A stretch of DNA of 64,000 bases from Azolla caroliniana (lineage: Eukaryota > Plantae > Polypodiophyta): positions 19,964,001-20,028,000 of the forward strand of contig JBHGNT010000002.1 in NCBI GenBank assembly GCA_043228905.1, read 5' to 3'. Position numbers and translations under genes: made by a program. Of the stretch, positions 4,621 to 64,000 are shown piece after piece; position 1 is the first letter of the stretch, and the number at the start of each line of letters is the position of its first letter. The notes beneath the pieces were generated by a model, which did not search any database, was not told where the DNA came from, and was given only the letters and a program-made list of their open reading frames with translations.

Positions 4621-5282
4621 TGTCGTAGTGTGAATCACACACTACGTGAAATATGTAAAATACTATATCCGATTTAAAGTACGTATAATAAATAAAATAA
4701 AATATTAAAAATATTTATTATATGCATAGGCCAAGGTTCAAACACTATACCTCCACATAGACAAACCCCAACATTACCACTATACTAGCATATTATGAAT
4801 TTTAAAGTTATAGTAAACTTTATTCCATTTAAATATTCTAGATATGCATGGTACAAAAAGTTATGCATGCATACACACTCGAGTTAAAAGAAAAGATGGG
4901 ATAGAAAGCTAATCATGCACATGTAGAGTGCATGAAAACTAAAGTTAGGAAAAGCATGATGCTTGCATATGATAAACTTAGACTCTTCCAACACTATATA
5001 AGGAAGAGAGAAAGATGTATAGGGGTTGTTGATTTTTTATAAGGATTGATTAATACAAAATATTCGTGGGATTCACGAATTTGTGATAAAAATTGTCTCT
5101 TACTATCTAAATATTGATTAAATACACTAAACTCGTGGGATTCACGAGATTCATAACTTACCTATCTTTCTAACAATCTATCCATAACTATAAACTTGTC
5201 TCAAATTCTTCTTTCTCCTAGTCCAAAACCTCAGTGGTTCCCACCCGACTCACGCAACGATCCGGAGCCAAAAGGCACGACA
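4621..5282 (+). mobile_element. Solo LTR of the TGTCGT...ACGACA gypsy-type family, inserted in the LINE endonuclease
   Basis: Begins tgtcgtagtg and ends ggcacgaca, homologous to the LTRs at 58404-63982. 4-bp TSD gcgt/gcgc; removing the LTR and one TSD copy restores the LINE frame (CEEA-QSTS). Confidence 0.92.
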
Positions 5283-7933: not shown

Positions 7934-8077
7934 TTCTTTTTCTTTTCTTTTTTTCCCCTAAAAAGATACGCCTTGGTATTATGAAATCATAATAAATACA
8001 AAAGTTGTGTTGGATAAACAAATATACCAACCGATTCCCTTGTACTCTCATCATAGCCAATTTGTTGAGCATAGCCA
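7934..8077 (-). mobile_element. 5'-truncated non-LTR retro-insertion with A-rich tail inside the LINE
   Basis: Flanked by a 14-bp TSD gcaattatcgacac (7920-7933) / gcaattatcggcac (8078-8091). The T-rich run at its left end is an A-rich tail on the minus strand. Confidence 0.75.
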
Positions 8078-9789
8078 GCAATTATCGGCACATTTGGGAT
8101 ACATTACAAGGATTATTAGTGTTGCAAGGGCATGTGCCACATTTGAATGAAGATTCTTTATATCTTGATTGGACTTTTGTGGGGGGGAACAACTTAAGTA
8201 TGGTTTCAACGAATGAGTTTTATCATACAATTTGGGAAGCATATGTGGTTAGAAAAAAAGGGCAATTAAGGTATGGTCTTTTCATAGGCCAACAATTTGG
8301 TGGAAAAATGTACTCCAGAAGGGTTGGTGTTCACATTTGTCATTTAGAGCCAAGGTGTTTATTTGGAGGATTATGGTTTGTGGATTACCATTGGGTGATG
8401 CTTTATGCAAAAGAAAAATTGCTAGTGGCCTCTGTTTCTTTTGTATGGTGGAAGTAGAACACAGTCGACATCGATTTATTTCATGTCCTGTTACAAAGAT
8501 GGTTTGGAAATTTATTAATGCAACATGGATGTCCCTGACAAGAGGGATAAATTCTCCTTTCAAATGGGTTTTTGCACAAATGGAATTAGGAGGTCTTTCA
8601 CCTTCTTTTCAGATTATTTTGGATTATTTGAGGTATTATAGGCTTTGGTTTATTTGGCATATGCGAAATGCTTTTATATTTGATGAACAAAGGGGAGTAC
8701 ACCGTTGTGTGTTGACATTAAAAGGGTTCCTTTTATGGCAATTTTCATTGTTGGAGATGTCAAGCATATTCAATCACGAAGAGAGACAAGTATGTAAGTT
8801 AGTTGGGCATCACATTTGTCATTTGGTTTGATAAGAAAGGTTATGGGATGTTGAGAGACATATTCATGGTTTGTAATGATAGGAATATGTATCTCTCTAT
8901 ATAGATACATGATGACTTACAAGTTGTAATAGTGGTTTTTTTACATGCAATTAATATAATTGTGTGATTTTACCAAAAAGGAATCCATTTAAACTTTTTT
9001 CTTTTTGTTCTACCATTTGAACATCCCCCTCACCTACAAAATTGCAAAAGAGGACTTTGTAGAGACGATTGATCCCATGGGTGATGTTGGAGTTATATTT
9101 GCAAACATAACTTAGCAATCACAAGGTGCAATCGTTCCATTAAAACGGTGGTCAAACTCTTTAAACTCGTGGATAGGAAAGATTTTGCAAAGTGAACCTA
9201 ATATGTCGTATATAACCTATATTAAAAATCTTGAATTTGTTGGTTATTCCTCATAAACTTACACCATTTCATGCATGGAAAAAGAAACAACACATTAGAA
9301 AACGTTTTTGTTTTGTTTTGAGAACATTGGTTGATAGGTTCAAAGACTGTAGACCATAAGTTTGCTAGAGAGTTCACAACAAAGTAGTGTCGAAGGATCG
9401 AGGTAAAAACTTTGAAACACCCACAATTTTTGTCTTTACTCCTCGAACACCCTTGGCAAACCCAACCCATTCTCAGGCAATTAATTATATGTGCTAATTG
9501 GGCAAGCACATGTCAGCTCATTTGGCTTTCATTTCATTCGAAGCGGGATTGACAAGAGGAATTCAGGGGGTTGTGGGGGGCAATGAGAACTTAGGGGGTA
9601 TTCCGGGAATAATGAAAACCCGGGGGTATTTCCGAGGTTTACCTGAATGTTTATGTGATTTGCATGTGGCTGTCAATGCATATTCATTCTTCATTCTTCT
9701 TCTTCGTGCATGACTCATGAGCCCAAAGAACATTTGTAAAGTTTCTTTAACCATGTCTTTGAACACACATAAATAATATTGTTCATAGA

Positions 9790-12480
9790 ATGGATTGCTT
9801 CTTATCACAGGCATCCCTCACCCAGCCCATCGAAGCCAATTCGAATCGCCCACAAACCAATTTGGATCGAAATGTTCTTCTCAGTCTCCTCCAGTCTTAT
9901 GGTAAGCACAAAAGCCTTCAGAAAGCCAGAAAGCTACACACAGAAATCCTCCTCCAAAAAAAAGAGATGCTTCATAATGACATATATATTAGCAATGCGT
10001 TGATTAGCACGTATGTCAAATGCGGTGCCTTAGGCGATGCAAAGAAAGCGTTTAAGGAGATTAGAACGAGAAATGTTGTGTCTTGGAACACATTGATTTC
10101 TGGCTATGTCCGTGGTGGCTTATATGATGAAGCCTTAAATCTCTTCCAGAAGATGCAAGAACTCTGTTTTCACCCAAATGCTATCACTTTTGCCTGTGTT
10201 CTGAAAGCTTGTGCTAACACTGGGTCTCTTCACATGGGAGAAGAGATGCATAAAGAGGTATTAAAGCTAGGTTTATTGGGGAAAAACATAGTTGTTGGGA
10301 CAGCATTGGTAGATATGTATGCTAAATGTGGCGAGCTTGGAAAAGCCCAAGAAGTATTCGATAAACTCATCGAGAAGGATGTGGTCTCTTGGAATGCATT
10401 GATTGTTGGGTACATCCAACACGGTCTTCCTCATGAAGCTATGAAGTGCTTTGTTCGCATGCAAGCTGAGAATTTCTCTCCCAATGAAGCCACATTTACT
10501 TGTGTTTTGAAAGCTTGTGGAATCTTAGGATCTATTGGAATGGGAGAAGAAATCCATACTGAGGTTCTGAAGAAGCATTTATTGGAAAAGAATGTGGAGC
10601 TTGGCAATGCATTAGTAGACATGTATGCCAAGTGTGGAAGGCTCGATAAAGCCCAGGAAGCATTCGATAGGCTTTCTCTACGGAATGCTGTAACTTGGAA
10701 TGCATTGATTTCGGGGTATTCTCAGCATGGATTTGGTGAAGAAGCTTTAAGGCGCTTCAGAGAGATGCGAGATGAAGGGGTTTTCCCGGACAAATTTACC
10801 TTTAGTTGCATTTTGAAAGCTTGTGGGACCATAGGATCATTGAAGATGGGAGAAGAGATACATGTTGAGATAAGAAGACAAGGTTTATTAGAAAAAGATG
10901 TGGTAATTTGCACTGCCTTGATGGATATGTATGCCAAGTGCGGTGTGCTAAGCAAAGTGCAAGAGGTATTTGATGAGTTTCCAATAAGAAGTGTTGTATC
11001 ATGGAACACACTAATTGCCGCATATGCACAACATGGACTTGGGTATGAAGCTTTGAATTTCTACAAGTGTATGCGTGATGAGGGATTCTCTCCAAATGCA
11101 GCTACATTTTCTTGCATTTTGAAGGTCTGTGGCAACATAAAATCTCTTGAGATCGGAGAAAGTATCCATGACGAGGTTAGAAAAGATGGCTCACTCAAAA
11201 GAAATTGCTTTGTTGGGACATCATTGGTGGACATGTATGCAAAATGTGGTGTGCTGGGAAAAGCTCAAGAAGTATTTGATAAGCTACCAGATCGTGATGT
11301 GGTAGCTTGGAACGCGCTGATTTCAGGGTATTCGCAGCAAGGTTGCAATACTGAAGCTATCAATTGTTTCTTGCGAATGCAAGATGAGAATGTCACTCCA
11401 AATGAAGTTACCTTTGTGTGCATTTTGAATGCTTGTGGCAGTATGAGATCTCTGGAGTTGGCAGAGGAGATACATGAGAAAATTTGTGAGCAAGGATTAT
11501 ATGATAAAAACGTTGTGCTAAACAATGCATTGGTTGATATGTATGTCAAGTGTTGCATGCTAGAGAAAGCGCAAAAGGTATTTGATGATCTTCTGGTGAG
11601 GAATATTGCTACTTGGAATGCACTCATTGCTGGGTATGCCAAGCATGGGCTTTATGATGAAGTTCTTAGCTGTTTCCGACAGATGCAAGATGATGGTCTA
11701 TCCCCAAATGCAATTACATTCTCGTCCATTTTGAAAGCTTGTGGCAATGCTGGATCACTAGAAATTGGAGAGCAGATACATATGGAGATTTGCAATCAAG
11801 GGTTGCTGGAGAAAGATGTAGTGCTGTGTACTTCATTGTTGGACATGTATTCCAAGTGTGGTGTGCTAGAAAAAGCACAAGAGGTGTTTGATCAACTTCC
11901 CATTCGAAATGTTGCATCATGGACTGCCCTCATGTCTGGATATTGCCAAGCAGGGCAAACAAAGAAGGTTTTGAAGTTACTCAACAAAATGACTGAAGAA
12001 GGTATTGAACCAGATGTGGTTACCTTTGTCGTTGTACTGAGTGCATATGTCCACGCAGGCTTAGTGGAGGATGGTCAAATGCTCTTTGATGATATAAGCA
12101 GAGTATATTGTCACATGCCAACTTTAGAACATTATAGCTGCATGGTCGATCTTTTTAGTCGTGCAGGACATTTTGATAAAGCTATAGCTGCAATTGAAAA
12201 AGTGCCAGTATCTAACCGACTCACATTGTGGTTATCGCTTTTGGGCGCCTGTTCCAAATGGGGAAATTTGGCAATTGGCAGATTGGCCTTTGCACAGTCC
12301 ATATACTTGGATGAAAAGTGCAATGTTGCATATGTCTCAATGGGTAACATATATGTAGCTGCTGGCATGCACGTGGAACCAGAAGATATTGAATTGTTGG
12401 GAGTGAAAAGTGAAAGGACACTAGGGCATCATTTGTGGACTGATAAGAGTGTATATTGTGCATTTGTTGATTATGGTTGA
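9790..12480 (+). CDS. PLS-class pentatricopeptide repeat protein with C-terminal E domains and no DYW domain (probable organellar RNA editing factor)
   Basis: Intronless 896-aa ORF with repeated P-L-S triplets (ALVDMYAKCG..KAQEVFD..RDVVSWNALI.GY...G...EAL..F..M..EG..PN..TF..ILKACG). E-type motifs EHYSCMVDLFSRAGHF, WLSLLGACSKWGN and AYVSMGNIY follow. Confidence 0.96.
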   Translation: MDCFLSQASLTQPIEANSNRPQTNLDRNVLLSLLQSYGKHKSLQKARKLHTEILLQKKEMLHNDIYISNALISTYVKCGALGDAKKAFKEIRTRNVVSWNTLISGYVRGGLYDEALNLFQKMQELCFHPNAITFACVLKACANTGSLHMGEEMHKEVLKLGLLGKNIVVGTALVDMYAKCGELGKAQEVFDKLIEKDVVSWNALIVGYIQHGLPHEAMKCFVRMQAENFSPNEATFTCVLKACGILGSIGMGEEIHTEVLKKHLLEKNVELGNALVDMYAKCGRLDKAQEAFDRLSLRNAVTWNALISGYSQHGFGEEALRRFREMRDEGVFPDKFTFSCILKACGTIGSLKMGEEIHVEIRRQGLLEKDVVICTALMDMYAKCGVLSKVQEVFDEFPIRSVVSWNTLIAAYAQHGLGYEALNFYKCMRDEGFSPNAATFSCILKVCGNIKSLEIGESIHDEVRKDGSLKRNCFVGTSLVDMYAKCGVLGKAQEVFDKLPDRDVVAWNALISGYSQQGCNTEAINCFLRMQDENVTPNEVTFVCILNACGSMRSLELAEEIHEKICEQGLYDKNVVLNNALVDMYVKCCMLEKAQKVFDDLLVRNIATWNALIAGYAKHGLYDEVLSCFRQMQDDGLSPNAITFSSILKACGNAGSLEIGEQIHMEICNQGLLEKDVVLCTSLLDMYSKCGVLEKAQEVFDQLPIRNVASWTALMSGYCQAGQTKKVLKLLNKMTEEGIEPDVVTFVVVLSAYVHAGLVEDGQMLFDDISRVYCHMPTLEHYSCMVDLFSRAGHFDKAIAAIEKVPVSNRLTLWLSLLGACSKWGNLAIGRLAFAQSIYLDEKCNVAYVSMGNIYVAAGMHVEPEDIELLGVKSERTLGHHLWTDKSVYCAFVDYG

Positions 12481-16574: not shown

Positions 16575-16909
16575 GGGAAAAGTACCAGGATACCCCTGTA
16601 AGTTCGTCTATTGACCAGAATGCCCCTGGAAGATCCAAATTTATCAAACAACCCCTATGTCCAAAATATTACACTTTATAAAGTAATTATACATTCAAAT
16701 CAACAAGCCCTATTTACCAAAGATGGAAGAAATAGACCCGAACTAGCCCTATTTCTTCCATCTTTGGTAAATAGGGCTTGTTGATTTGAGTGTATAATTA
16801 CTTTATAAAGTGTAATTTTTTGGACATAGGGGTAGTTTGGTAAATTTGGAACTTCCAGGGGCATTTTGGTAAATAGACGAATTTCCAGGGGTATGCTGGT
16901 ACTTTTCCC
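16575..16909. mobile_element. Mutator-like foldback MITE (nearly the entire element is an inverted repeat)
   Basis: Ends gggaaaagtaccag...ctggtacttttccc, arms of about 160 bp, and a perfect 9-bp TSD aaagatata (16566-16574 / 16910-16918). Confidence 0.93.
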
Positions 16910-47345: not shown

Positions 47346-50244
47346 TGATCCTCCGTCTCCTGTTCCTTTCTTCTTCTCTGGGGTCCATAGAGCCAAGTAT
47401 GTATCAGTATGTATGTATGTATGTATGTATGTATGTATGTATAAGATGGGGATGAGGCTTTTGTTTTAAGTCACGAGTGAGACTCGAGAGAGAGCCAAAA
47501 AAAAAGCCCCCCCACCTCCCTATCCACTTAAAACTACATACATACATACATACATACATACATACATACATACATTTGCATTACATACATATGATACTCT
47601 CTATGTCTATCACCACACCACCACCACTAGGGGGAAACCAAAAGGTCCTTCTTCTTCTTCTTCTTCTTTTTTGTCTATGGACATATATCATCATAACACA
47701 AGCCCCCCCCCCCCCACCCCACCATTTACGTACGCCATGGTTGTCGTAGTGACGACTCTCTTACCCCCCCCCCCCCCCCCCCCCCCCCGATGCTTTTATT
47801 TGTCACGTTGTATCCACACACACATACACGTGATGTGACGGATTGATCCTTCAAGATCGATATTAACACATGATTGTCCACACATGCTAGGATCCGAAAC
47901 CTAGAGACACAATTGAATGTGAAAGCCAAAAGGTTCACATCGATGGTGTTTGTTTATAATAATCACACCAGTTCTTCTTATGCCTCCAAAAATCTTATGG
48001 CAGTCATTCTCAATCGATATGGTGGAATCGGGAGACAAGCTTGCCGAGAAGTGGTGGTTTATGTGGCATATATCGAGATATGGGAGGCCCTCTCCGATTT
48101 GGATGTAGATAATTGCCCCGGAATCGATGGCCTCACTCCTCACTTTTTCATGTGCCTTTGGGACACTATTAAAGAAGACCTCCTCCCGACATATGAGGAG
48201 ATCATCACCTCTAGAAACATGTCGGAGGAATTTGGACATGGGATGATACATTTCATTCCTAAAAGTGATGGGAGTGCCAACGACATTAGTAAGTGGCGGC
48301 CCATAACTCTTCTCAATATTGTCTATAAGTTGCTTGCAAAAACCATGGCACGCCGCTTAGCACCACTTCTCTCTCAACTCATTCATCCGTCCCATACAAG
48401 TTTCGTTAGAAATCGGAGCATCCTAGACAACTTTTTCTCTGTTTGGGAAGCAATAGCCCTTGCCAAGCGTACCAACAACAAGGTAGTTATGGTGCTCCTA
48501 GATTTTGAGAAAGCATATGACAAGGTATGTTGGAACTTTCTAGAAAGTGTGATGGGGAAACTCGGCTTTCAGGATTCATGGATCCAAGGCATTGCATGCC
48601 TTTATAGGAACGCCAACGATTGTGTTTCATTAGCAGGTGAAAGGGGCCCCTTCTTCCAAATATCGCGGTCTGTACAACAGGGATGCCCACTAACTCCATC
48701 CTTATTTCTATTATACGCCGAAGCACTCTCTAGCTTTCTCAACTCACAACAACTAAACCTATGTGGTCTTCGTGTGCTGCATTCTCACCAAAGCCTCCTG
48801 GATATAGAATTTGCATATGACACCGCGGTCTACCTACAAGGGGACTTGGAAAATCTACAAAAGCTAGAAAGTGGTTTAGACGTATTTTGCAAGAGATCCA
48901 ATGCCATGATCAATTGACACAAATCATGTGCAATATGGTTGTCTCATGAAGCACATCCTACGTGGCACCCCCATCCCGCTTTCAAGTGGATCAATCAAGG
49001 ATCGAGCACCAAATATTTGGGTTCAACATACCTCCGGAGACTATGATTGCACTAGTTATTCACTCCATTTGACAAAAGTTGATACATTGTAGTTCAAAAA
49101 AACTCTTGTTAGCGGGGCGCATCAAAGTGGCAAATTAGGTATTACTCACAACTACGTGGTACAACCTATCATGTTGGACAAACTCCAAGGAAAGTATACA
49201 CCAGATTCAGCGATTGGTACACAACTACATTTGGTCTGGTAAGGAAGATCATGCAACTCGGGCCAAGGTGGTGTGGCCTATACTCACATCACCTAAGACG
49301 AGAGGAGGATTGGGTCTTATTGATCCCCTCTCACAATCAAAAGCCCTCCTTGTCAAATTTGTGGTGCGAGAACTCCAACCAGGGAATGATTGATGGAAAA
49401 TGCTATTGCGGTTACATTTCGCTTGCTTTAAGCCAAAGAAAGGGGCCAATTGGGACCCCCAAACTGGATGGATTCTAAACATGGATCTCAAACCTAGTTT
49501 CTCCCACAAATTGGAGGATAGATTCAGTGCATTCATGTGGAAGGCATGGTGTGACATTAGATGAGGGATCAAGTGTGATCAACCTAACTCTGAACCTGCT
49601 TGGCTCAGTCAACGTATCCTATGGAACCCATGCATCAAAGATGAATCTAATCAACTAATTGAATCAAGTAAGGGGTTTTCATGGGGATACATTGCGGAAG
49701 GTCTAGGAAAAAATATAGAATGTTGGAGACGGTTTATGTCATTGCCAATACAAGACCAAGCCAACATACTCCATGGAATCAGGGGTAGATGGGCTATGAG
49801 ATCTGAAATCATTAACGGTCTACTGATTAGGGAAGCTGCTAATTAAAGGACGGCAATAGAGAAATGGATAGGCTACGAGGAGGGCTCTTTGATCCCAAGA
49901 GGTAGGGAAACACCAGATAGGATTGCAAGCTCTGAATTGCAAGACAATGAGACACCAACATAGAATAAAGCAATTCGAGTACTAGTGTATACTAGGCATA
50001 AATGGATTGTAGATCCTGATCCTATCAAAGTACAACCAGATTGGCACATATGTACTCACAAAAACACATGGCTACGTATGGTCAGTTGGGACCCTTTGCA
50101 ATGGACATGGCATCAGGCATGATCCTTATGCAGGGCAAGGAAGCAAACCCATCCTTTTCTTTCAATTCACAACTAGATTGGGTCGCCATATTCTAGCTGC
50201 TCAAACCGCCCGAGAGCTGTCTGTTGCAAAGGTCTGACACACAT

Positions 50245-51578: not shown

Positions 51579-54500
51579 TGTTACGAAGGCGCTACGACAC
51601 TTCTGTGTGCACAACGGATCGTGATGTGTTGGTTCGTTTAGTGCTCAAGACAGAAAGGGGAAAGGGGAGGAGACTTACATTTGCACAGTCCAAAAGCTTC
51701 TACTTAGTTACACGCAGAGCTCAACTCACTCTCGTCAGTTTTTTTGTTTTTTGTTATTTTTTCTTCTCTACTCTCACTCTCACACTTTTCTACTTACTTC
51801 TTACCTAAGTTATAAGTGACTTATATATGCAACTAATTAGCTGCCATTAGCTAATTAACTGTTAGTAGCTAAATAGTTGTTTCACCTTTATGTCCACTAG
51901 TAGCTAATTAGCTAATAGCTACTATAGCTTATTTCTCAATAAGCATCACATACCTTTGTTGAGCTTGCTTCTCAACACTCCCCCTCAAGCTCAACTTATC
52001 CTTTCTTTGGATAATTTCCAATCTTCTTTTCTTCATGTTTTTCAGCTACCATGCCGATGGTTATAACTCCCATCATGTCTCTAAATTGTGTATGTTTTTC
52101 CATGCTCAATCCCTTCGTAAGAATATCAACCACTTCCTGATTTGTACTTACATACAACAAATCCACTTCTCCATCAATCACTTTTTCTCTAACGAAGTGT
52201 TAATGCACTTCAATGTGCTTTGTTCTTGCATGGAACACTGGGTTTTTTGCCAACTGAATGTTGCTCATATTATCACACGAAATTGTGAATGTACCATCTA
52301 TATATTCTCCCAAATCAGAAAGCAATCTTCTTATCCATACCTCTTCTTAGGTGGCTATTGCAGCTCCTCTATATTCAGCTTCAGTACTTGATAATGCAAC
52401 AGTAGCTTGTTTCTTGCTACTCCATGAAATGACTGCACTTCCCAATGTAAACATATATCCACCTGTGGATCTTCTGTCAGTTTAGCTTCCAACCCAATCA
52501 ACATCAGTATGTCCTTCCAGTTTTATGTCCAAATCAGCCCTGCAAAACAACCCATAGTTCTGAGTAGCTTTTACATACCTCAAGATTCTTCTAATGCAAT
52601 CCAAATGTGGCTTTGTGGGCTATTGCATAAACTGGTTGACTAATCCAACCATAACTCAAATCAGGTCTTGTTATAGTCAAATATATGAGGTTGCCCAGCA
52701 TAGACCTGTACATGTTCACATCTTCTATTTTGGCTCCCAACTCAGCCCTCAATTTGTAGTTCTTATCTAGTGGTACACCAATAGGTTTGCATCCAAGCAT
52801 ACCATACTTCATCAACATAGTTGTTGCATACTGTTTTGTGACATATATATACCACTTTCATATCTGATCATCTCAATGCCAAGAAAGTATCTCAGCTCTC
52901 CCAAATCCTTCATATGAAATTGCATTTCTAGAATTTTTTTCAGCTTTCTTATTTCATCCATGGAATCACCTCCAATGATTAAGTCATCAACATATATCAA
53001 GATAACAACAATGCAATCATTTATCTTCTTTACATATAATGATGGATTGGTCTTTGACATTTTGAAAGCAAATTTTTTCAGAGATTCTGAAAGTTCTTTA
53101 TTCCATGCCCTTGGTGCTCGTTTCAATCCATAGAGAGCCTTTTTCAGCTTACAAACATATTCTGGATGTTTCTTATCTTCAAAACCTGGTGGTTGACACA
53201 TATACACTTCTTCTTCTAAGTTACCATGTAAAAAAGCATTTTTTACATCCATATGGTGCAGAACCCATCTTTTGGCTGCACTCACAGCAAGTAGTGTCCT
53301 CAATGTTGCCATCTTTGCAACCGATGCAAATGTTTCATCATAATCAATTCCATGCATTTGGGCATATCCCTTTGCCACAAGTCTTGTTTTATGTCTACTA
53401 ACATTTCCATTGGAATCATGCTTTGTCTTGTAGACCCATTTGCAACCTACAACATTTTTTCCTTTCGGTAACTTTACCAAATCCCATGTTCTGTTTTCAG
53501 CCAATGCATCTATTTCTTCTTGCATTGCATTCACCCATTTTTTCTCAGCTTTTGCTTCATAAAGATTGTTTGGATTAGGGATTTGTACCACTTTAGACAT
53601 GTATGCATAATTCATAGCCATATATGTGTCATAGCCAAATCTTTCAACAATCTTTTTCTCTCTATTTGATCTTCTCAGTTTTTGATTTGTATCCTTCATT
53701 GCTTTTTCCATACCAGGGATTTTCAGGGCTCCTATACCAAGCTCATGGTCCAATGATGTATCTGAATCTATATCTTCCATGTTTCTAGAACCATCATCAA
53801 GCATTTCATATTCTGGCATCTTTTGTTTTCCCTTTTTATCATCATATTTTTTGTGGCTTGCATTTTTTCCACTCCATGCATTAGATTTAGATTTACTACC
53901 TAAGCTGTTGATGTTGTCCAGTACATTCCATTGATGTTGAACTTTGCTGTCCAACATTGTTTCCATTCCCATGGCAATCGCTAACATTTTCAGATTTATC
54001 TCTGTCTTCATTTTCATTGTCTTCATCAATTTCTACATTTTGTTTTGGGTTGTACCAACTGCCCAACTTATCAAATATTACATCCCGACTTACCTCAATC
54101 TTTTTTGTCACAGGGTTATAACATCTATACCCTTTTTGCTCCTCTGAATATCCAACAAGAACACATTTTTCAGCTTTTGGATCAAGCTTACTTCTTACTT
54201 CAGCAGGTACATGAACATAGGCAAGGCATCCAAACACTTTTAAGTGTTTTAAACTAGGCCTCTTGCCATAGAAACATTCTTTAGGAGTTATTCATGCACT
54301 CCAGTTGTTATACATCTATTTAGAATATAATTTGCCATGTTTACAACTTTTGTCCAGTAATACAATGACATATTTTTTTCAGTCATTAAAGCTATTGCTA
54401 TGTTCGCCAAAGTTCTGTTTTTCCTCTCAGCAACTCCATTTTGTTGTGGAGTATATCTACATGTATACTGTCTCCTTATTCCTTTATTACATAGAAAATC

Positions 54501-56886
54501 AGAAAACTCATTTGAGAAGTATTCTCCTCTTCCATAATATCTTAGGCATTTTATTCTAGTTCCAACCTGCTTTTCTACCACGCATTTAAACTTACGGAAA
54601 CAACCAAATACTTCACTTTTTTCTTTCATGAAGTAAACCCATGTTTTCCTTGAGCAATCATCAATGAAAGTTACATAAAACTTACATCCACTAATTGATG
54701 CATTTTTTGTTGGTCCCCATACATTTATATGTACAAAATCCAACAAATTTTTGCTTACATGTCTTTCATGAGGGAAAGGCAACTTGTTTTGCTTTCCATA
54801 TTGACATGCTTCACATATTTTGCTCATTTCATAGTCTTTAACTTAGGTAGTCCAACCACTGCATTTTTCCTCAACATATTTTTCAATGTTTGCATACTTA
54901 TGTGGCCGATTCTTTTATGCCACATTTCCACATCTGAGATTACACTCATTCCTTCTACAAACATGGTTGTAATCTTTTTAGGCATATCCACATCTAACAC
55001 AAACATTCTTCCTTGACGTTTTCCTTTTGCAATAAGCTTTCCCAGTTTCTCTATAAAGCATCCACTTTGCTTAAACTTAACTTGCATTCCTTGCTCCACT
55101 ATCTATCCAACAGAAATCAATTTTTTTGCAAGGTTTGGCACATGCATAACATTCAACATATATTTTGTTTTCCCTTTTTCTTCCCACAATGGGATATCTC
55201 CCACATGCTCTATTTGGTGAGTAGTATTATCACCTATCTGTACATAACCAAGAATCTGTGGTTCTCTTAGACTTTCAAACCTGTTTGCATGTCTTGTCAT
55301 ATGATTAGATGCCCCAAAATCTACATACCACATAAACTCTTCATTGCATCTTTGTGAACATTCAACCATTGCTGTTGTTTCATGTTGCACCACAAATGCA
55401 CCATCTTTATCACAGTCTTCATTGGTTGAGGCATAATTATTTTGCTGTCTCTTCCCTCTTTTTTCATCATTTTGCTTTTTATAACATTCAGCCTGTGTAT
55501 GGCCTGGTTTTCCACAATACCAACAACCATCATCATTCAAATAAATTTGCTTACCTCTGCCCCGATTGCTCCCCCTGCCTCTAATGTTGTTTCTTCCACT
55601 TACAACCTGTTGTCCTCTTCCTTGATAATTGTTGTTGGTTCTGGCTAAACCAAATCTTCCATGGCCTCTTCCAGCACTATTGTAGAGGGCTTGCCCCTCA
55701 GTCTCAGAGTTTCCTTTGTTTACATTATCCATCTGATGTCTTTCTTCCACTACAAGCATTGAAACTAGATCTGGAAAACTTGGGATGCTATCCCTTGTGA
55801 GAATAGATGTTTTGAAGCTTTTATATTAAGGTCCTAAGCCTCTTAAGCATATTTCCACCTTATCATCATCTTCTACCTTCACATTGATAGAAGCAAGTGA
55901 TTCACATATGCTCTTTATTTTCAGAGCATACTCATTCACTGACATCTTACCTTTTTCCAAGGTATTTAGCTCAGTCTTCAACTAAAGCTTTCTAGCCTTT
56001 GTGTTCACTGCAAACAGTTTTACTAAATTGTCCCAAGCTTCTTTTGGAAGCATAGCATCATGTATGTGTCCAAGCATCAAATCTGAGATGCTAAGTGAGA
56101 GCCAATGCAATACCTTTCTTGCCCCTTGATTCCATTCCTTAAATGCTTTAATCTATGCAACAGTTGCATTTTCTTCAGGGATCTCTGGAGCCTCTTCTAG
56201 GTCTCCTTCAATGTAATCCCAATATCCTTTTCCCATAAGGAAATTTGTCATTCTGAATTTCCACATAGGGAAATTATTTTTGTCCAATCTTTCTGTGACT
56301 ATTTGGCTTCCATTCTCAGCAGCCATTCTCTCTTTCAATTAGGCTTAACTTCATAGACAACTCTCTCTCTGATTCAGATAAGCAACCAGAACCAAACTTC
56401 TCAGATCTGTACTGCTCTAATCTTCTTTAAGAGCAACTTAGCTCTAATACCATGTTACGAAGGCGCTACGGCTCTTCTGTGTGCACATCGGATCGTGATG
56501 TGCTGGATTGTTTAGTGCTCAAGACCGAAAGCGGAAAGGGGAGGAGACTTACCTTTGCACAGTCCAAAAGCTTCTACTCATTACACGTAGAGCTCAACTC
56601 ACTCTCGTCTGTTTTCCTGTTTTCTGTTCTTTTTTCTTCTCTACTCTCACTCTTACACTTTTCTACTTACTTTTTACCTAAGTTATAAGTGACTTATATA
56701 TGTAGATAATTAGCTGCCAGTAGCTAATTAGTTGTTAGTAGCTAAGTAGTTGTTAGTAGGTAAATAGATGTGCATAGCTAAATAGATGTTTCACCTTTAT
56801 GTCCACTAGTAACTAATTAGCTAATAGCTACTATAGCTTATTTCTCAATAAACATCACATACCTTTGTTGAGCTTGCTTCTCAACA
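51579..56886 (-). mobile_element. Full-length but frameshifted Ty1/copia LTR retrotransposon
   Basis: LTRs 51579-51977 and 56453-56886 (tgtt...aaca), PBS tggtattagagc (tRNA-iMet type), PPT gagggggag. Gag with CCHC (CWYCGKPGHTQAEC), protease WYVDFGASNHMT, integrase PQQNGVAERKNRT, RT YVDDLI, RNase H. Degenerate TSD gcatt/acatc. Confidence 0.95.
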
Positions 56887-57220
56887 ACATCCACATAAGA
56901 TGGACCTATCGCGTCCCTACAAGGATTTGTATATATTAATCTCATATGTAAAACTTTATAACTAATGGAAGGAGTTTTTTTTTGGAAAAGAAGAAGAAGA
57001 AGAAGAAGACCAAACCGGAGATTACATCATAAAGTGTTGTCTTGTCTTCAAGAACAAACCAAGATACATGTAAACAAAGTAAATCAAATCAAGTGTCACT
57101 AACAAATCTCATAATCAATACATGTAAGATTCCAAAAACACATAATTTGAAACTTATTGTCTTCTAGATAACTCTATCACCTATAATGCCCAAAGATAAT
57201 GGCCTTTATATGTTAACTGC

Positions 57221-58399
57221 TGTCGTGAAGATTTTCGGCAATGATGTGAAAATCACATAAAACGTATAAAATCGAGTATGAATCACATAAAACAATAATA
57301 GTGAAGATAACATTTTAAATAAGTTTAATATCTAAGTACAAAATGATGGAGGTCTTCAAGAGCTTTCGAATGCACTTTATTACACGAGAAATGGACAACT
57401 AGATGTCAAGATATGAGGGTATAAAGTTTGTGAAAGGAAAAGAGAAAATTGTGAGATATCCCACATAGGCATGACAAATACGACTCTCATCATATATAAG
57501 GTAGAGCAAAAGTTATTATCTTTGTGTCTATGTGTTGAGCATAAAGAGTTCAAGGTAACTTGAACTAAGAGTGGAGGTGGCCTAGCTACTTGTAAAGGTT
57601 TTGGCCAACAAAAACCGGACCGACGACGGAACCGTCATCCGACGGAGCCGGCGAGCCGGTGGAACCGACATCCTGCGAGGCGGCGGCCACCGATAACCGG
57701 CGGCAACCGGCGAGGCGGCAGCCACTAGTAACCGGAGACATCCGGCGTTGGCGCACCGGCATCCGACGGCAGCCACCAGTAACCAGCGGCATCCGGCGAA
57801 CCGATTAGATAAATAAATATATAAATATATATACATATACAAGGAGGGCAAGTAAGTATTCAAACCTTGCACCTCCAAGTTGAGAGTCTATAGGCTTACC
57901 ACTAAGCGAAGACATTTTCTTGAAATAATTATTTTATCATTGTAACTTTACATGTAAATTCTCATACATGAGAGCTAAAATGAGTGACGTGGTTATCATG
58001 CACCACATGTAATACATGAGCGCCAAATGGCAAACATGCATTTTATGCATGTCTTGAACCCTCAAATGCATAAGGGTATCTATAAAAGAGGGGATAAAAA
58101 AGATCAAAAGGGGGGTTTTTTTTTGAAAAAAGAAAGCTTTGTACTTTAAATCAAAATTAATATTAAGAAGAAAATTCGTTATCCTTTTGATGATATACCT
58201 TGTTCTTGAAATCTAAAGTCAAGAATTCTTAATCTCTCTCTCAATCTAAAATCAAGCGTTCTATCTTTTCTCAATCTCTCTCTTTCAATCTATCTTAATT
58301 CCTTTCTCGCTAAAGCTAGTGCCAACGTTGAATCCTTCCTGTCCAGAACCTCGACGGTTCTGCCTCGCGATCCGTGCATAGTGACAGATCTTCACGACA
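57221..58399 (+). mobile_element. Element A: 1179-bp solo LTR of a related TGTCGT...ACGACA family
   Basis: 12-bp terminal inverted repeat tgtcgtgaagat...atcttcacgaca and TSD ctgc/ccgc. Shares the 3' motif gtccaRaacctcgRcggttc and the tRNA-like module with the neighbouring LTRs. GC-rich repeats at 57615-57802. Confidence 0.8.
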
Positions 58400-59081
58400 C
58401 CGCTTTCGTAGTGTATTCCACACACTACGTGAAAACCGTAAAATAATATATTCGATTTTAGATACATATAAATAGATAAATAATATATCAAAATATTTAT
58501 CACGTGCATAGGGCAAGATTTGAACCCTACACCTCCACGTAGATAAACTTCAACTTTACCATTAAAATAACTTATCTTTAGTGTTATACATATAGATTTA
58601 ATACGTATAAGACCTTTATTTACACATACCTTTATAAAAAGGTAAAAATCATGTATTCTTTAGGGTGTGAATATTTTATTTACACGTGACATTGAAAGTG
58701 ACTCATGCACATCTAGCGTGCATGAGCCCTATATTTAGGAAATGACAAAGCATCACATGCACATTTAGTGTGCATGGACACTTTAGGTGAAAAAGCATGA
58801 AGCCATGCTTAGCCTCTTCCATCTTTATATAAGGAGGAGAGAAATATGTATAAGGTTGTTGATTATTTTTCTATAATGATCAATCAATCTAAAATATTCG
58901 TGGGATTCACGAATTTGCTAAAATAATTCTCTCTTACTACCTAAATATTGACTAAGTATACTAAACTCGTGGGATTCACGAGATTCTTATCTTATAACTC
59001 TTTATACCTATTCTTTACTAGCCTTATTTGTATTTTTCTTTCTCCTAGTCCAAAACCTCGGCGGTTCCGAAAGTCGTTGAC

Positions 59082-59642
59082 TTGCTCAAGGAGAAGGTGG
59101 CGAAGGGGATTCTAGAGCCATCAACTGCTCCATACTCAAATCGATGGTTTACGGTTCCGAAGAAGAATGGGTCACTCCGATTTATCCAAGACTTGCAACC
59201 GTTGAATAAGGTCACGATCCGGAACTCGATAGTCGGTCTGATAGTGGACAAATTTGCGAAAGCAATACGCCGACAACAAGAAGCACGATTTCGGAACAAA
59301 AGCCGGTTCGACACAAAGCACCGACTACGACCGAGGAGGATTGAAGAAGGAGATTGGGTGATTGTCTATGACAGTAGTTTGGACCATCAACATACAATGA
59401 TGCGGAAATTCGCGAAAAGGTGGTTCGGGCCATACGAGGTTCGGAAAGTCTTCGACAACGGAACGTACCGACTGTTCGAGTTGGATGGAACAATACTACG
59501 ACTGCCTATAGCCGGGAAGCGGGTGAAGATTTTTAAGAAGCGAACCGACGACAAACCCTATGTGATCCAAGCCAAGGCCGACAATGAGGAGCAATCGGAT
59601 GAAGATCACGGTGATGCGGGAAGCGAAGAAAGTGAATTATAA
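59082..59642 (+). pseudogene. Gypsy pol remnant: RT N terminus fused in frame to the integrase C terminus (GPY/F region)
   Basis: GILEPSTAPYSNRWFTVPKKNGSLRFIQDLQPLNKVTIRN is followed directly by RQQEARFRNKSRFD...GDWVIVYD...KRWFGPYEV...NGTYRL. Confidence 0.85.
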
Positions 59643-60419
59643 CTCATAGTCGACATAAGGGGAGAATCAGAGGAAGCTTTGGGTGAAGACGGATATGAGG
59701 AATCGAGAACTTCGGCACATACCGGAGGATGTGCGGGTTCGGAGGGGGCGAGTGTCGTAGTGTATTCCACACACTATGTGAAAACCGTAAAATAATATAT
59801 CCGATTTTAGATACATATAAATAAATAAATAATATATCAAAATATTTATCACGTTGTCGTGCCTTTCGGCGTCAGATCGTTTGCGTGAGTCGGGTGGGAA
59901 CCGCTGGGGTTTTGGACTAGGAAGAGGAGAGTTTTAAGGCTAATAAGAATATAAATATGTTGTAAGAAAGAGTTATAGCAAACTCGTGAATCCCACGAGT
60001 GTATTGTATTAGATTAATCAATATGAATATAAGAATATAAACTTCGGTTGAAAGAGAATGATATAGAATTCTCGTGAATCCCACGAGTATAGTTTATTAA
60101 TTGGTGTTTTTTAGAAACATATCCAGTTTCCAAATATTTTTCACACCCAATTACATTGTGCTTCCCCATCCTTATGTAGTGATGAGGAAGTCTTAGTAAT
60201 CCATGCTTTTTCTCTAACTATAGACCCCATGCTTTTCCTATAGATAGACTATATGCTTTATCTAAAGTGATCATGCTTTTTTTTCTAACTTGTGCGTTTT
60301 TTATCATGCACGTTAGATGTGTATGTGTAGCTTTTTCTTTTGTTATGCGTTTTTCTAATGTTTATCCTAGCGTGAATTTACCTTTCTATGTGGGACATCT
60401 ATGCTTTAACACTAATGAA

Positions 60420-60488
60420 ATGCTAGTGTAATGGTAAGACATTACATTATTAACATGGAGGTGCAAGGTTCGAATCTTGCCCTATGCA
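60420..60488 (+). promoter_or_regulatory. tRNA-like Pol III A-box/B-box module inside the LTR, antisense to the element (second copy at 63213-63281)
   Basis: A-box tagtgtaatgg (60424-60434) and B-box ggttcgaatc (60467-60476) at tRNA-like spacing; T-arm-like stem gcaag/cttgc; T-run at about 60500. Confidence 0.65.
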
Positions 60489-60587
60489 TGTTTCATTTAT
60501 TTTGCTATTTTCTTCTATTTCTTCATTTTTTATTGAATCTAATACTATATACGTTTTTCACGTAGTGTACAAAATACACTACGACAC

Positions 60588-62609
60588 TCACCCCCTCCAA
60601 ACCCGCACATCCTCCGGTATGTGCCAAAGTTGTTGGTGTTTGTTAGTCTCCTCCGTCCGGTCTCTACCCGATTGGTTTCGTTGCCGGCTCGTAGTACCCT
60701 CGACTTCTCTTGTTATGTTGACTTTGTCTCTCCATTTGGAGCACATCCATTCTTTCCACCCGAACCATTGTCGACATCCGATCCACCATAGTCTTCGTTT
60801 GCTTTTTGCATGGCCCGCTTGGTCCTTGTCATCCGCGGTAGTATCTTTTCTTGCCCTCTTTCTTTTCTTCATCAATCTCGACTTCTTTTCGGATTTTCGG
60901 TTTAGTCGGATTAGCTTACTTCCGATTCGGTCTCGTCGAATCGTCTTTCGTTTAGTTCGGCTTCCTTTCCGATTTGTATTCGGTCGATCCGGACTCGGTT
61001 GATCGGTTTTTACCGATTCAGTGCTCTTTCGGGTCGGTTTCTTTTCTTTTCTTTTCGTCCGGATTTGCTTTCTTTTCTTCGTTTTCACCTGCCTTGTCCG
61101 GTTTGACTTTCGGCACTTCTTTCCGTTGTTCGCCACGTAGGTCCTCCGATATGTGCTCGTTGTTCGGTCCTCGTGTGGTTGTAATGCATGCTTCTTTTCT
61201 CGCCGTAGCGCGTGCTTCTTTATTCGCCATAACACGCGTTTCTTTATTCGCCGTAGAGCGTGCTCTGTATTACGCGCTTCTCCCGTCGTAGACCCGACCT
61301 CCGCATTGTCGCACTTTCTTTTAGATTGGAATTTCGGATGGATCATTTTCCATCCGAACCGACTTCCGACTTTACCTTCCTCGTCGCCATCTCCCGTCTC
61401 TCCGGTCTCACGTTGGTTCTCGGACACAACCGCCGAAGTCTCTAGATATTGTTGGCATGAATCCTCGGTATTACCTTCTTTCATAGTTTCACCCTTAGCA
61501 TTCTTCTCGGCTATCTCTTCATCGTATTCGTCGGCTTCGACATTCGTTTTCTCTCCGCCACCTTCCGTCTCTTCGGTCTCACGTTGCCTTTCGATCGCAA
61601 CCGCCGGAGTCTCTGGAATTAGTGGTGGGGAAGTCTCGATATGGCAATCCGCCATTGATTCGTCCATAGCCACCTCCGATTCGATTTCGTCTTTTGTGGC
61701 TACCTCCTTAATCACATCCGCTTCACACTCTTTATCTGCATCAATTATGCAAACATCTATTATGCTTACCCCTTTTTGACCCGATGTCTCGGGCACTTGT
61801 ATCCCGAAATTTCCTTCTACACTTGAATTATCGGCCTTATCCTTCGCCATCGTTCTTTCACAAGACGAGTGGGTGTCTTGTTCCACTCTTTCTCCCGTGG
61901 TACCATCATGTTGTATTTCGGCCTTCATATTGGCTTCATCGTTTTTCCTCAATCGACCATCCTTCATGGGCCATGTCGTTGTTGACGAGATTCTCAGCTT
62001 CCTTTCATCATGTCTTCGGCATACCCTTTCGACTTTAGCCCAATCCTCGGTAAGGCCGTTCGCACCGTCATCATCTTCGAGTTCGATCCCAATGTCCATC
62101 CTTTCTTTTCGATCGATCGATTTTACGAACATTAGGACTTTATCTTCTCCCACCAATCGTTGTTCCCGCTCCGAGAGTCGAGCAAAACGATGCTCGAACT
62201 CTAGGAATGCTTGTGTTGCACTTCGGTGGGTCTTCTCCGATGCCACCCATTCGTCAAACTCGCGTCGATCTCGTCCCTTCGATCTCTCGTAGTCATATGC
62301 CTCTCGTAAAGCTTCTTCAAATGATCCCCATGTCGAGTTTTGTTGCCGTATCTTGTAGATTCTTTCTTGTAACTCATCCGTGGCTACCCGACTGAAGGAT
62401 ATCACTTGCAATTCTTCTGGTATCCCACATCGCATCATCTCCCCTTTGTAGTCACGTAGATAGCGTGACACATCATTTCCGTTGAATTCCCCATTTCGTC
62501 GCACAAGCCGCTCTACTGCCGCCTTCATCTCCGTCATCGCGCGTTGTTCTTGTTGCATCCGCTCAACCATCATCATCATCATGTTCATCACCTCTTGTTG
62601 ATTCTCCAT
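60588..62609 (-). CDS. About 673-aa ORF of element C: gag-like N terminus followed by an acidic and then a Lys/Arg-rich low-complexity region; no PR, RT or IN
   Basis: Open from the first ATG at 62609 (the ORF track extends it to a GTG at 62630 inside the PBS) to TGA 1 bp before the 3' LTR. FNGNDVSRYLRDY...WGSFEEALREAY resembles a gypsy gag capsid; no pol motifs seen. Confidence 0.75.
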   Translation of the reverse strand: MENQQEVMNMMMMMVERMQQEQRAMTEMKAAVERLVRRNGEFNGNDVSRYLRDYKGEMMRCGIPEELQVISFSRVATDELQERIYKIRQQNSTWGSFEEALREAYDYERSKGRDRREFDEWVASEKTHRSATQAFLEFEHRFARLSEREQRLVGEDKVLMFVKSIDRKERMDIGIELEDDDGANGLTEDWAKVERVCRRHDERKLRISSTTTWPMKDGRLRKNDEANMKAEIQHDGTTGERVEQDTHSSCERTMAKDKADNSSVEGNFGIQVPETSGQKGVSIIDVCIIDADKECEADVIKEVATKDEIESEVAMDESMADCHIETSPPLIPETPAVAIERQRETEETEGGGEKTNVEADEYDEEIAEKNAKGETMKEGNTEDSCQQYLETSAVVSENQRETGETGDGDEEGKVGSRFGWKMIHPKFQSKRKCDNAEVGSTTGEARNTEHALRRIKKRVLWRIKKHALRREKKHALQPHEDRTTSTYRRTYVANNGKKCRKSNRTRQVKTKKRKQIRTKRKEKKPTRKSTESVKTDQPSPDRPNTNRKGSRTKRKTIRRDRIGSKLIRLNRKSEKKSRLMKKRKRARKDTTADDKDQAGHAKSKRRLWWIGCRQWFGWKEWMCSKWRDKVNITREVEGTTSRQRNQSGRDRTEETNKHQQLWHIPEDVRVWRG

Positions 62610-62625
62610 CCCCTTGCCACCCGTC

Positions 62626-62643
62626 TTCACGTCGGGTTCACCA
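62626..62643 (-). promoter_or_regulatory. Primer-binding site complementary to the 3' end of tRNA-Trp(CCA)
   Basis: The plus strand reads ttcacgtcgggttcacca, the 3' 18 nt of plant cytosolic tRNA-Trp as recalled; it lies 4 nt from the 5' LTR. Confidence 0.85.
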
Positions 62644-64000
62644 ACTGTGTCGTGCCTTTCGGCGTCAGATCGTTTGCGTGAGTCGGGTGGGAACCGCTGG
62701 GGTTTTGGACTAGGAAGAGGAGAGTTTTAAGGCTAATAAGAATATAAATATGTTGTAAGAAAGAGTTATAGCAAACTCGTGAATCCCACGAGTGTATTGT
62801 ATTAGATTAATCAATATGAATATAAGAATATAAACTTCGGTTGAAAGAGAATGATATAGAATTCTCGTGAATCCCACGAGTATAGTTTATTAATTGGTGT
62901 TTTTTAGAAACATATCCAGTTTCCAAATATTTTTCACACCCAATTACATTGTGCTTCCCCATCCTTATGTAGTGATGAGGAAGTCTTAGTAATCCATGCT
63001 TTTTCTCTAACTATAGACCCCATGCTTTTCCTATAGATAGACTATATGCTTTATCTAAAGTGATCATGCTTTTTTTTCTAACTTGTGCGTTTTTTATCAT
63101 GCACGTTAGATGTGTATGTGTAGCTTTTTCTTTTGTTATGCGTTTTTCTAATGTTTATCCTAGCGTGAATTTACCTTTCTATGTGGGACATCTATGCTTT
63201 AACACTAATGAAATGCTAGTGTAATGGTAAGACATTACATTATTAACATGGAGGTGCAAGGTTCGAATCTTGCCCTATGCATGTTTCATTTATTTTGCTA
63301 TTTTCTTCTATTTCTTCATTTTTTATTGAATCTAATACTATATACGTTTTTCACGTAGTGTACAAAATACACTACGACAACGTGCATAGGGCAAGATTCA
63401 AACCTTGCACCTCCATGTAGATAAACTTCAACTTTACCATTAAAATAACTTATCTTTAGTGTTATACATATAGATTTAATACGTATAAGACCTTTATTTA
63501 CACATACCTTTATAAAAAGGTAAAAATCATGCACATCTAGCGTGAATATTTTATTTACACGTGACATTGAAAGTGACTCATGCACATCTAGCGTGCATGA
63601 GCCCTATATTTAGGAAATGACAAAGCATCACATGCACATTTAGTGTGCATGGACACTTTTGGTGAAAAAGCATGAAGCCATGCTTAGCCTCTTCCATCTT
63701 TATATAAGGAGGAGAGAAATATGTATAAGGTTGTTGATTAATATACAAGGATTGATCAATCTAATATATTCGTGGGATTCACGAATTTTGCCACCTAAAT
63801 TACTCTTATAATCTAAATATTGTTTTAAATACACAAAACTCGTGGGATTCACGAGATTGCTATCTTACTTCTATTTCTACTATTCCTAACTAGCCTTAAG
63901 TTGTATTCCTCTTCCTCCTAGTCCAAAACCTCGGCGGTTCCCACCCGACTCACGCAATGATCCGGAGCCGAAAGGCACGACACCGCTCTTTACTGCATCA

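What the first reader, a model, noticed from the sequence alone, without database searches (positions are those of the whole stretch)
60420..60505. LTRs carry an antisense tRNA-like Pol III cassette (possible tRNA analogue of Cassandra's 5S-in-LTR design)
Seen: every LTR of the TGTCGT...ACGACA group contains a ~70-nt module antisense to the element. In the youngest element (C; 60420-60488 and 63213-63281) it reads atgc-TAGTGTAATGG-taag...gaggt-gcaa-GGTTCGAATC-ttgccctatgca followed by a T-run. This is an A-box and B-box at canonical tRNA spacing, with a variable-loop-like GAGGT and a T-arm-like stem. Older copies show both CpG-decay variants of the same B-box: ggttcaaatc (about 58515) and ggtttgaatc (about 63395). 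The solo LTR at 4723-4790 has A-box tagtatagtgg, and the otherwise different LTR A (57846-57908) keeps the module too. Known: Cassandra TRIMs carry 5S-rRNA Pol III promoters in their LTRs, and A/B boxes recruit TFIIIC. Inference: the module is retained across two LTR subfamilies, so it may make a short antisense Pol III RNA, act as a TFIIIC insulator against silencing, or guide insertion. Element C inserted exactly at the 3' end of this module in element B.
Basis: partly seen in the sequence, partly recalled or inferred. Interest (0 to 1): 0.78.

Follow-up and report, generated by a model that had tools for sequence, protein, structure and literature searches.

The report
tRNA-promoter relics in fern retrotransposon ends
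Several families of jumping genes, likely from a fern, keep a decayed tRNA-like promoter, usually pointing backwards, in their terminal repeats upstream of their own predicted promoter, where it likely recruits the tRNA transcription factor to keep that promoter open; tRNA-bearing terminal repeats were described in 2024, but in tiny non-coding elements.

Summary
The module is real. All six LTR copies of this group in the window carry an antisense A box and B box at tRNA spacing (p at most 0.013 against shuffles). The elements are Phygy-like Ty3/gypsy (4-bp NCGN target duplications), and the host is likely a fern.

Of 26 complete related LTRs, gathered without reference to the module, 13 carry it. 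Carriers span Gag proteins only 27-78% identical to element C's. Some families carry it in sense, or carry two or three copies in both orientations. The boxes are better conserved than surrounding U3, and the cloverleaf is lost. Thirteen LTRs lack it, one subfamily by a clean 148-nt deletion, so it is dispensable.

The 'tRNA analogue of Cassandra' is already published (Helenus, 2024), and this scan noted such elements in other genomes. What differs here: long LTRs, coding elements, and a mostly antisense position upstream of a TATA-like motif. C's insertion beside the module is explained by the NCGN target preference.

Best reading (about 45%): an orientation-independent TFIIIC landing pad that helps keep the LTR's Pol II promoter open. 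No expression or binding data were obtained.

The parts
60417..60503 (+). tRNA-like cassette in the 3' LTR of element C, antisense to the element. A box from T8 at 60424, B box 60467-60477, first T4 at 60500-60503
63210..63296 (+). identical cassette in the 5' LTR of element C (T8 at 63217)
58490..58576 (-). cassette in the 5' LTR of element B (T8 at 58569; B box with CpG to CpA)
63380..63454 (-). cassette in the 3' LTR of element B (T8 at 63447; B box with CpG to TpG); its tail lies on the far side of element C
57830..57916 (-). cassette in solo LTR A (T8 at 57909)
4708..4794 (-). decayed cassette in the solo LTR (T8 at 4787)
59855..63379 (-). element C: two 732-bp LTRs, 100% identical (59855-60586, 62648-63379), 2061-bp interior with one Gag-like ORF and no pol; 4-bp target duplication ACGT
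60588..62609 (-). Gag-like ORF. No Pfam hit of its own; 2 of 12 homologues continue into an aspartyl protease. Gag identity is inferred from position
62627..62643 (-). primer-binding site of element C (tRNA-Trp type by recall; the dominant Phygy type in Neumann 2019)
60587..60598 (-). polypurine tract of element C
58404..63982 (+). element B: truncated 5' LTR 58404-59068, fused RT and integrase C-terminal fragments 59069-59752, 3' LTR split by element C; target duplication CCGC
57221..58399 (+). solo LTR A, 1179 bp, 12-bp terminal inverted repeat; flanks CTGC/CCGC
4621..5282 (+). solo LTR of the B/C group; flanks GCGT/GCGC

Best explanation
These LTRs carry a degenerate tRNA-like A-box/B-box cassette in U3 that likely works as DNA, not as a tRNA: it would recruit TFIIIC upstream of the element's predicted Pol II promoter and help keep that promoter open against silencing. 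Shown: the boxes, their 43-45 nt spacing, their conservation across distant families, either orientation, up to three copies per LTR, loss of the cloverleaf, and loss of the whole cassette in about half of the LTRs. Inferred: origin from tRNA or SINE heads captured more than once; the TATA assignment; TFIIIC binding; any barrier or chromatin-opening effect. A short (about 85-90 nt) Pol III transcript may be made as a by-product.
For: (1) Deep retention. Carriers include elements whose Gag is 27% (L077, L045), 34% (L013), 51% (L034, L038) and 56-78% (L063, L067, L074) identical to C's, in three parts of an unrooted 37-row tree.
(2) Box-centred conservation. In 6 B/C-group LTRs, column identity is 0.83 for the A box and 0.81 for the B box, against 0.63 for the anticodon part and 0.62/0.52 for flanking U3; the two-box layout ranks 4th of 525 placements. 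In 6 A-group LTRs: 0.73/0.72 against 0.39/0.55 for the flanks.
(3) No tRNA fold. D, anticodon and acceptor stems pair at shuffled levels (0.67/0.53/0.58 against 0.61/0.60/0.57; 24 cassettes).
(4) Orientation-free. Of 27 cassettes, 21 are antisense and 6 sense. L038/L079 carry a different, sense cassette in the same U3 slot; L047 and L077 each carry two antisense and one sense.
(5) Position tracks the promoter. The nearest upstream cassette starts 94-267 nt before a TATA-like motif in 13 of 13 complete carrier LTRs where my pattern found one (none found in 5), while its distance from the LTR 5' end ranges from 135 to 689 nt.
(6) Precedent. Pol III complexes limit the spread of silencing in yeasts (review PMC13578239, passage).
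Against: - No binding or expression data.
- 13 of 26 complete LTRs lack the cassette, and L023/L030/L032, from three assemblies at high depth, share a 148-nt deletion of it, so elements spread without it.
- The variable-loop/T-stem 5' strand is as conserved as the boxes (0.82 and 0.86), which the TFIIIC consensus does not explain.
- In the A group the boxes barely exceed the anticodon part (0.72-0.73 against 0.66).
- 6 of 27 B boxes have lost C56.
- A CAA motif upstream of the predicted start is present in only 11 of 27, and no T4 was found within the 42 nt scanned behind the B box in 10 of 24.
- The outside LTRs come from short-read metagenome contigs in which repeats can be collapsed or chimeric, and several are near-duplicates (about 11 carrier and 10 non-carrier types).
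Confidence: 0.45

Rival explanations
1. Passive relic: old SINE or tRNA-pseudogene heads landed in U3, were copied with the LTR and moved between families by template switching, with no current function.
For: Half of the complete LTRs lack it; one subfamily deleted it cleanly; several different cassettes in both orientations look like repeated insertions; many copies show CpG decay. Kojima notes that 'not a few LTRs' in Repbase hold partial tRNA sequence.
Against: Boxes and spacing survive while neighbouring U3 becomes unalignable. An intact CpG B box is present in the youngest element and in 9 of 27 cassettes. No free copy in 64 kb + 171.7 kb, though that sample is enriched for these elements.
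Confidence: 0.2
2. The cassette is a small Pol III gene whose roughly 87-nt two-hairpin RNA, complementary to the 3' end of the element's RNA, regulates the element or acts as a tRNA-elbow decoy.
For: The C, B5' and A cassettes fold into a D-like and a T-like hairpin (z -3.4 to -3.7). The stem around the B box pairs in 31 of 35 cells (C group) and 54 of 63 (A group), with different 3' partners (registers chosen after seeing the data). A T4 lies 24 nt behind the B box in most B/C-group copies.
Against: Cassettes fold no better than other 87-nt windows of the same LTRs (mean z -1.4, n = 25, against -1.6, n = 55; p = 0.76), and the opposite strand folds as well (-1.9). Only 2 and 1 two-sided changes were found. 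The solo copy does not fold (z 0.4). Sense cassettes would make a different RNA.
Confidence: 0.15
3. It acts in the genomic RNA: the tRNA-complementary stretch in U3 pairs with the primer tRNA, or forms a hairpin, to aid minus-strand transfer or packaging, as reported for HIV-1 U3-R.
For: The antisense orientation in U3 is the one needed (21 of 27). The best-kept stretch is the variable loop plus T-stem 5' strand. An HIV-1 precedent exists (title and one sentence of a review seen; the paper itself was not held).
Against: The cassette does not resemble the primer tRNA that the PBS implies: 2-7 of 12 identities at positions 61-72, and its 49-53 strand could close only 1-2 of 5 primer T-stem pairs in 25 of 28 cassettes. 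Sense cassettes cannot pair with a tRNA. The primer's D and variable loops could not be compared.
Confidence: 0.12
4. The conserved words are Pol II transcription-factor sites that only mimic tRNA boxes.
For: They sit upstream of a TATA-like motif, and conservation extends beyond the B box.
Against: Cassettes unrelated in sequence share the same T8, GG and T-loop geometry at 43-45 nt, and the Rfam tRNA model aligns over positions 8-63 with a single 1-nt insertion. A tRNA origin is therefore likely, even if another factor now binds.
Confidence: 0.05
5. The cassette guides integration of sister elements, as Pol III factors guide Ty3.
For: C's target duplication falls at positions 73-76 of B's cassette; a second insertion lies inside the cassette in L076.
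Against: Both sites are NCGN, the lineage's published preference. The other three window insertions are not at a cassette. Ty3-type targeting is at the Pol III start site, the opposite end (recalled).
Confidence: 0.03

Closest known systems
Helenus / TRIMp3 (Kojima 2024, PMC10886601; parts 1-4 of 6 of the text, figure legends and supplement passages read)
   Same: [quoted passage not shown]
   Different: Helenus elements are non-coding, 311-1263 bp in all, with LTRs up to 323 bp. The four consensus LTRs I saw in the supplement are in sense, and the cassette is proposed to drive the element's RNA. Here the LTRs are 432-1179 bp, the elements carry Gag or Pol sequence, and the cassette is mostly antisense and upstream of a TATA-like motif, so it cannot transcribe the element.
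Cassandra and Ajax (5S rRNA promoter in TRIM LTRs; as described in PMC10886601 and bioRxiv 2023.07.14.548913, abstract and one section read)
   Same: A Pol III internal promoter retained in LTRs; related elements without it also exist.
   Different: 5S-derived (type 1) promoter that starts the element's own transcript; non-coding TRIMs.
Phygy clade of non-chromovirus Ty3/gypsy (Neumann et al. 2019, PMC6317226; passages and supplement rows read)
   Same: 4-bp NCGN target duplication; PBS of the tRNA-Trp type (assignment recalled); the integrase fragment's nearest named relatives are gypsy-type polyproteins of a liverwort.
   Different: Phygy was defined from Physcomitrella; this host is likely a fern. 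No LTR tRNA cassette is mentioned in the passages read.
tDNA/TFIIIC chromatin barriers of yeasts (review PMC13578239, passage; primary papers seen only as listings)
   Same: A/B boxes acting as DNA elements beside Pol II transcription; this is the proposed function.
   Different: Shown in yeasts at fixed loci; not described in plants according to the review; here carried by a mobile element and untested.
tRNA-Lys3-like sequence in HIV-1 U3-R (Piekna-Przybylska 2010; title and one review sentence only)
   Same: tRNA-related sequence embedded in U3.
   Different: There it resembles the primer tRNA; here the cassette does not match the primer's 3' part and occurs in either orientation.

Membership tests
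Helenus (TRIMp3) | tRNA-derived sequence with boxes A and B in the LTRs | tested here: met
Helenus (TRIMp3) | Miniature non-coding element (311-1263 bp; LTR up to 323 bp) | tested here: not met
   element C is 3525 bp with 732-bp LTRs and a long ORF; carrier LTRs 432-1179 bp
Helenus (TRIMp3) | Cassette placed to transcribe the element (sense) | tested here: not met
   21 of 27 antisense; the sense cassette of L038 meets a T-run 16 nt behind its B box; the sense cassettes of L045/L047/L077 are not excluded
Helenus (TRIMp3) | Pol III transcription from the cassette | not testable with these tools
   no usable RNA data
Cassandra/Ajax | 5S rRNA-derived promoter | tested here: not met
   no 5S match in Rfam scans
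Phygy | 4-bp NCGN target duplication | tested here: met
   4 of 4 in the window, two with one changed base; definition
Phygy | PBS complementary to tRNA-Trp | tested here: inconclusive
   PBS present; the Trp label is recalled, and no host tRNA sequence was obtained (one search found none)
Phygy | RT/RH/INT phylogeny within the Phygy clade | not tested
   no reference set on hand; nearest named relatives of the integrase fragment are Riccia polyproteins at about 58-72% identity
tRNA gene | Cloverleaf and covariance-model score above threshold | tested here: not met
   ARAGORN finds none in the window and, in 20 loci, only one tRNA-Leu outside an LTR cassette; 13.4 against 29 bits; stems at shuffled level
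Free tRNA-derived SINE | Copies outside LTRs with own target duplication and tail | tested here: inconclusive
   none in the window or 171.7 kb of element-centred loci; whole genome not available
TFIIIC boundary element | TFIIIC occupancy and barrier activity | not testable with these tools
   needs ChIP and a reporter assay

The most novel reading that the evidence does not exclude
A lineage of coding plant LTR retrotransposons has repeatedly captured tRNA-type promoters and uses them, in either orientation and in up to three copies, as portable TFIIIC boundaries that shield its own Pol II promoter from silencing. This would be a Pol III chromatin barrier in plants, scattered through the genome by transposition.
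Probability: 0.3. Interest if true: 0.75.

Novelty: new variant of a known kind. Interest (0 to 1): 0.5.

Why it matters
tRNA-bearing LTRs were interpreted as Pol III promoters that let tiny elements transcribe themselves. Here the cassette points the wrong way for that and sits in long LTRs with a TATA-like motif, so its retention needs another reason.

[quoted passage not shown] Nature supplies the controls: sister LTRs with zero, one or three cassettes, flipped cassettes, and a clean deletion subfamily.

Tried and rejected
- Whole genome: not held, so there is no genome-wide copy census or free-SINE search.
- RNA: no RNA holder listed. Laying four possible RNA or unlabelled contig sets was uninformative: one looked like DNA, one laid nothing, one laid 12 partial contigs, one is of unknown kind. 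Contigs cannot show strand or a short RNA. Not used as evidence either way.
- DNA contigs of four runs laid on LTR C showed higher summed depth over the B-box bins than on either side, but that depth is not a copy number, so I did not count it.
- Rfam scans of 57000-64000, L047 and L009 gave only chance matches.
- Parent tRNA not named: a search for a host-type tRNA-Trp gene in viral contigs found nothing.
- The LTR-PBS pattern found nothing in viral contigs and one bacterial match, taken as chance and not examined.
- One search used a misregistered structure on a mixed alignment, and a wrong gap length; both are void and were replaced.
- The two-hairpin fold looked significant until the same-LTR background was run.
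- The Gag profile matched no solved structure.
- The idea that these cassettes explain the more than 7500 tRNA genes reported for one fern is not supported, because ARAGORN does not call them; the host species was not determined, and I found no tRNA discussion in the supplements of PMC6786969 that were searchable.
- Literature searches found no report of such a cassette in Phygy or fern LTRs. Subscription papers, Repbase entries and bioRxiv supplements were not visible.

Full report
Anatomy. The window holds a nest of Ty3/gypsy elements with TGTCGT...ACGACA ends. Solo LTR A (57221-58399) is followed directly by element B (58404-63982), which landed in A's right target duplication. Element C (59855-63379, minus strand) sits inside B's 3' LTR; its 732-bp LTRs are 100% identical, and it encodes only a Gag-like ORF. 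A further solo LTR lies at 4621-5282. All four target duplications are 4 bp with a central CG, two of them with one changed base. Neumann et al. 2019 give 4-bp NCGN duplications and a tRNA-Trp PBS for the Phygy clade, so I call these elements Phygy-like; no RT tree against reference Phygy sequences was made. The integrase fragment of B has liverwort gypsy-type polyproteins as its nearest named relatives. The PPR gene's named homologues are mostly from Adiantum and Ceratopteris, so the host is likely a fern.

The observation. The module is present at the stated places in all six LTR copies, antisense, with 44 nt from T8 to G53. The Rfam tRNA model aligns to 60424-60480 over its positions 8-63, but at 13.4 bits, far below the gathering score of 29; ARAGORN finds no tRNA. 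To avoid circularity I built an A+B matrix from 12 of 24 phage T5 tRNAs. All five distinct window LTRs beat their shuffles (p 0.003-0.013); three control segments did not. A and the solo copy are individually no stronger than the best background sites in the window.

Related LTRs. A scan of metagenome contigs for the LTR end plus PBS, which does not involve the module, returned 97 loci. Thirty-two had a TGTCGT at least 300 nt upstream. I kept 26 as complete LTRs and dropped 6 (L001, L010, L023, L026, L036, L075) whose hexamer was not an LTR start in my judgement. Thirteen of the 26 carry a cassette (p at most 0.007) and 13 do not (p at least 0.11); L050, counted as lacking, keeps only the A-box half. 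Near-duplicates reduce this to about 11 carrier and 10 non-carrier types. Over 87 LTR-side sequences, complete and partial, 30 sites passed the score cut-off. I removed three (a shadow hit on C's other strand, a weak hit in L052, and a real tRNA-Leu in L042), leaving 27: 21 antisense and 6 sense, spacing 44 nt in 21, 45 in 5 and 43 in 1, where the matrix allowed 42-48. Carriers span Gag identities of 27-78% to C and three parts of the Gag tree. L038/L079 have a different cassette, in sense, in the same U3 slot. L047 and L077 each have two antisense cassettes upstream of the TATA-like motif and one sense cassette about 130 nt downstream of it. These contigs are short-read assemblies of repeats, and several show a polypurine tract before the '5' LTR', a sign of collapse, so LTR-Gag links hold at family level only. 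All may come from one fern genus.

Conservation. In six B/C-group LTRs aligned whole, the A box (0.83), B box (0.81) and variable-loop/T-stem strand (0.82) exceed the anticodon part (0.63) and flanking U3 (0.62, 0.52). In six A-group LTRs the values are 0.73, 0.72 and 0.86, against 0.66 for the anticodon part and 0.39/0.55 for the flanks, so the contrast inside the cassette is weak there. Between LTRs C and A the cassette is the only substantial match. The cloverleaf is gone. A hairpin around the B box persists with different 3' partners in the two groups but with only 2 and 1 two-sided changes, and cassette folding does not exceed the LTR background. A subfamily seen in three assemblies has deleted 148 nt covering the cassette.

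Mechanism. An antisense cassette in U3 cannot start the genomic RNA, unlike Cassandra's. Kept boxes, a lost cloverleaf, free orientation, multiple copies and a position tied to the TATA-like motif point to a DNA element. I favour TFIIIC recruitment that helps keep the Pol II promoter open (45%); binding and effect are inferred from yeast precedent, not shown. A passive relic (20%), a small Pol III RNA (15%) and a role in the genomic RNA (12%) remain open. The last is weakened because the cassette does not match the primer tRNA implied by the PBS. The conserved variable-loop strand and the fixed spacing are not explained by the favoured model. Insertion guidance is unnecessary given the NCGN rule and 86 CG sites in element B.

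Comparison and novelty. Kojima 2024 described Helenus, TRIMs with tRNA-derived LTR sequence, and remarked that other Repbase LTRs also hold partial tRNA sequence, but analysed only the short ones. These elements fail Helenus membership on size, coding capacity and orientation, while sharing the basic design. Five literature searches found no description of this arrangement in Phygy-like or fern LTRs. Earlier notes of this scan report Helenus-like elements and antisense tRNA-like cassettes inside fungal Gypsy elements in other genomes. None of those shown for this genome concerns this cassette, and a look-up by sequence found nothing. Verdict: a real, lineage-level feature; a new variant of a known kind; function untested; interest 0.5.

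Noticed in passing
window 58400-58403: Element B inserted into the right-hand target duplication of solo LTR A, so two elements share one NCGN site.
   Followed up: partly
window 5064-5082, 5133-5151, 59982-60000, 60073-60091 (approximate) and matching places in element B: A near-palindromic 17-18-nt word occurs twice, about 70-90 nt apart, downstream of the TATA-like motif and is as conserved as the cassette in the B/C group.
   Followed up: no
about 55-60 nt from the LTR 3' end (window 59897-59905; L014, L024 and others): A conserved GGTTC word in U5 scores as a B box in some families but could instead pair with the primer-binding site.
   Followed up: no
L024, LTR 3' half: An array of plant-telomere-like repeats follows the TATA-like motif in an LTR family that lacks the cassette.
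   Followed up: no
L042:2529-2612: A tRNA-Leu(CAA) gene lies about 900 nt upstream of the end of a truncated LTR of this lineage.
   Followed up: no
window 59855-63379: Element C is a Gag-only element with identical LTRs, so it moved recently with borrowed Pol (resembles TR-GAG elements; name recalled).
   Followed up: partly
window 57610-57805: LTR A holds a GC-rich short tandem repeat just upstream of the cassette, much expanded in L009, L030 and L032.
   Followed up: no
L047 LTR: The B-box half of one antisense cassette is tandemly duplicated at a 45-nt period, giving four B boxes in one LTR.
   Followed up: partly
window 16575-16909: 161-bp inverted repeat, 94% complementary, with a 13-nt spacer.
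   Followed up: no
window 9763-12480; 51579-56886; 6112-8831; 47874-48917: An intact PPR gene, a decayed Ty1/copia element, and two ORF groups that read like non-LTR reverse transcriptase remnants.
   Followed up: partly
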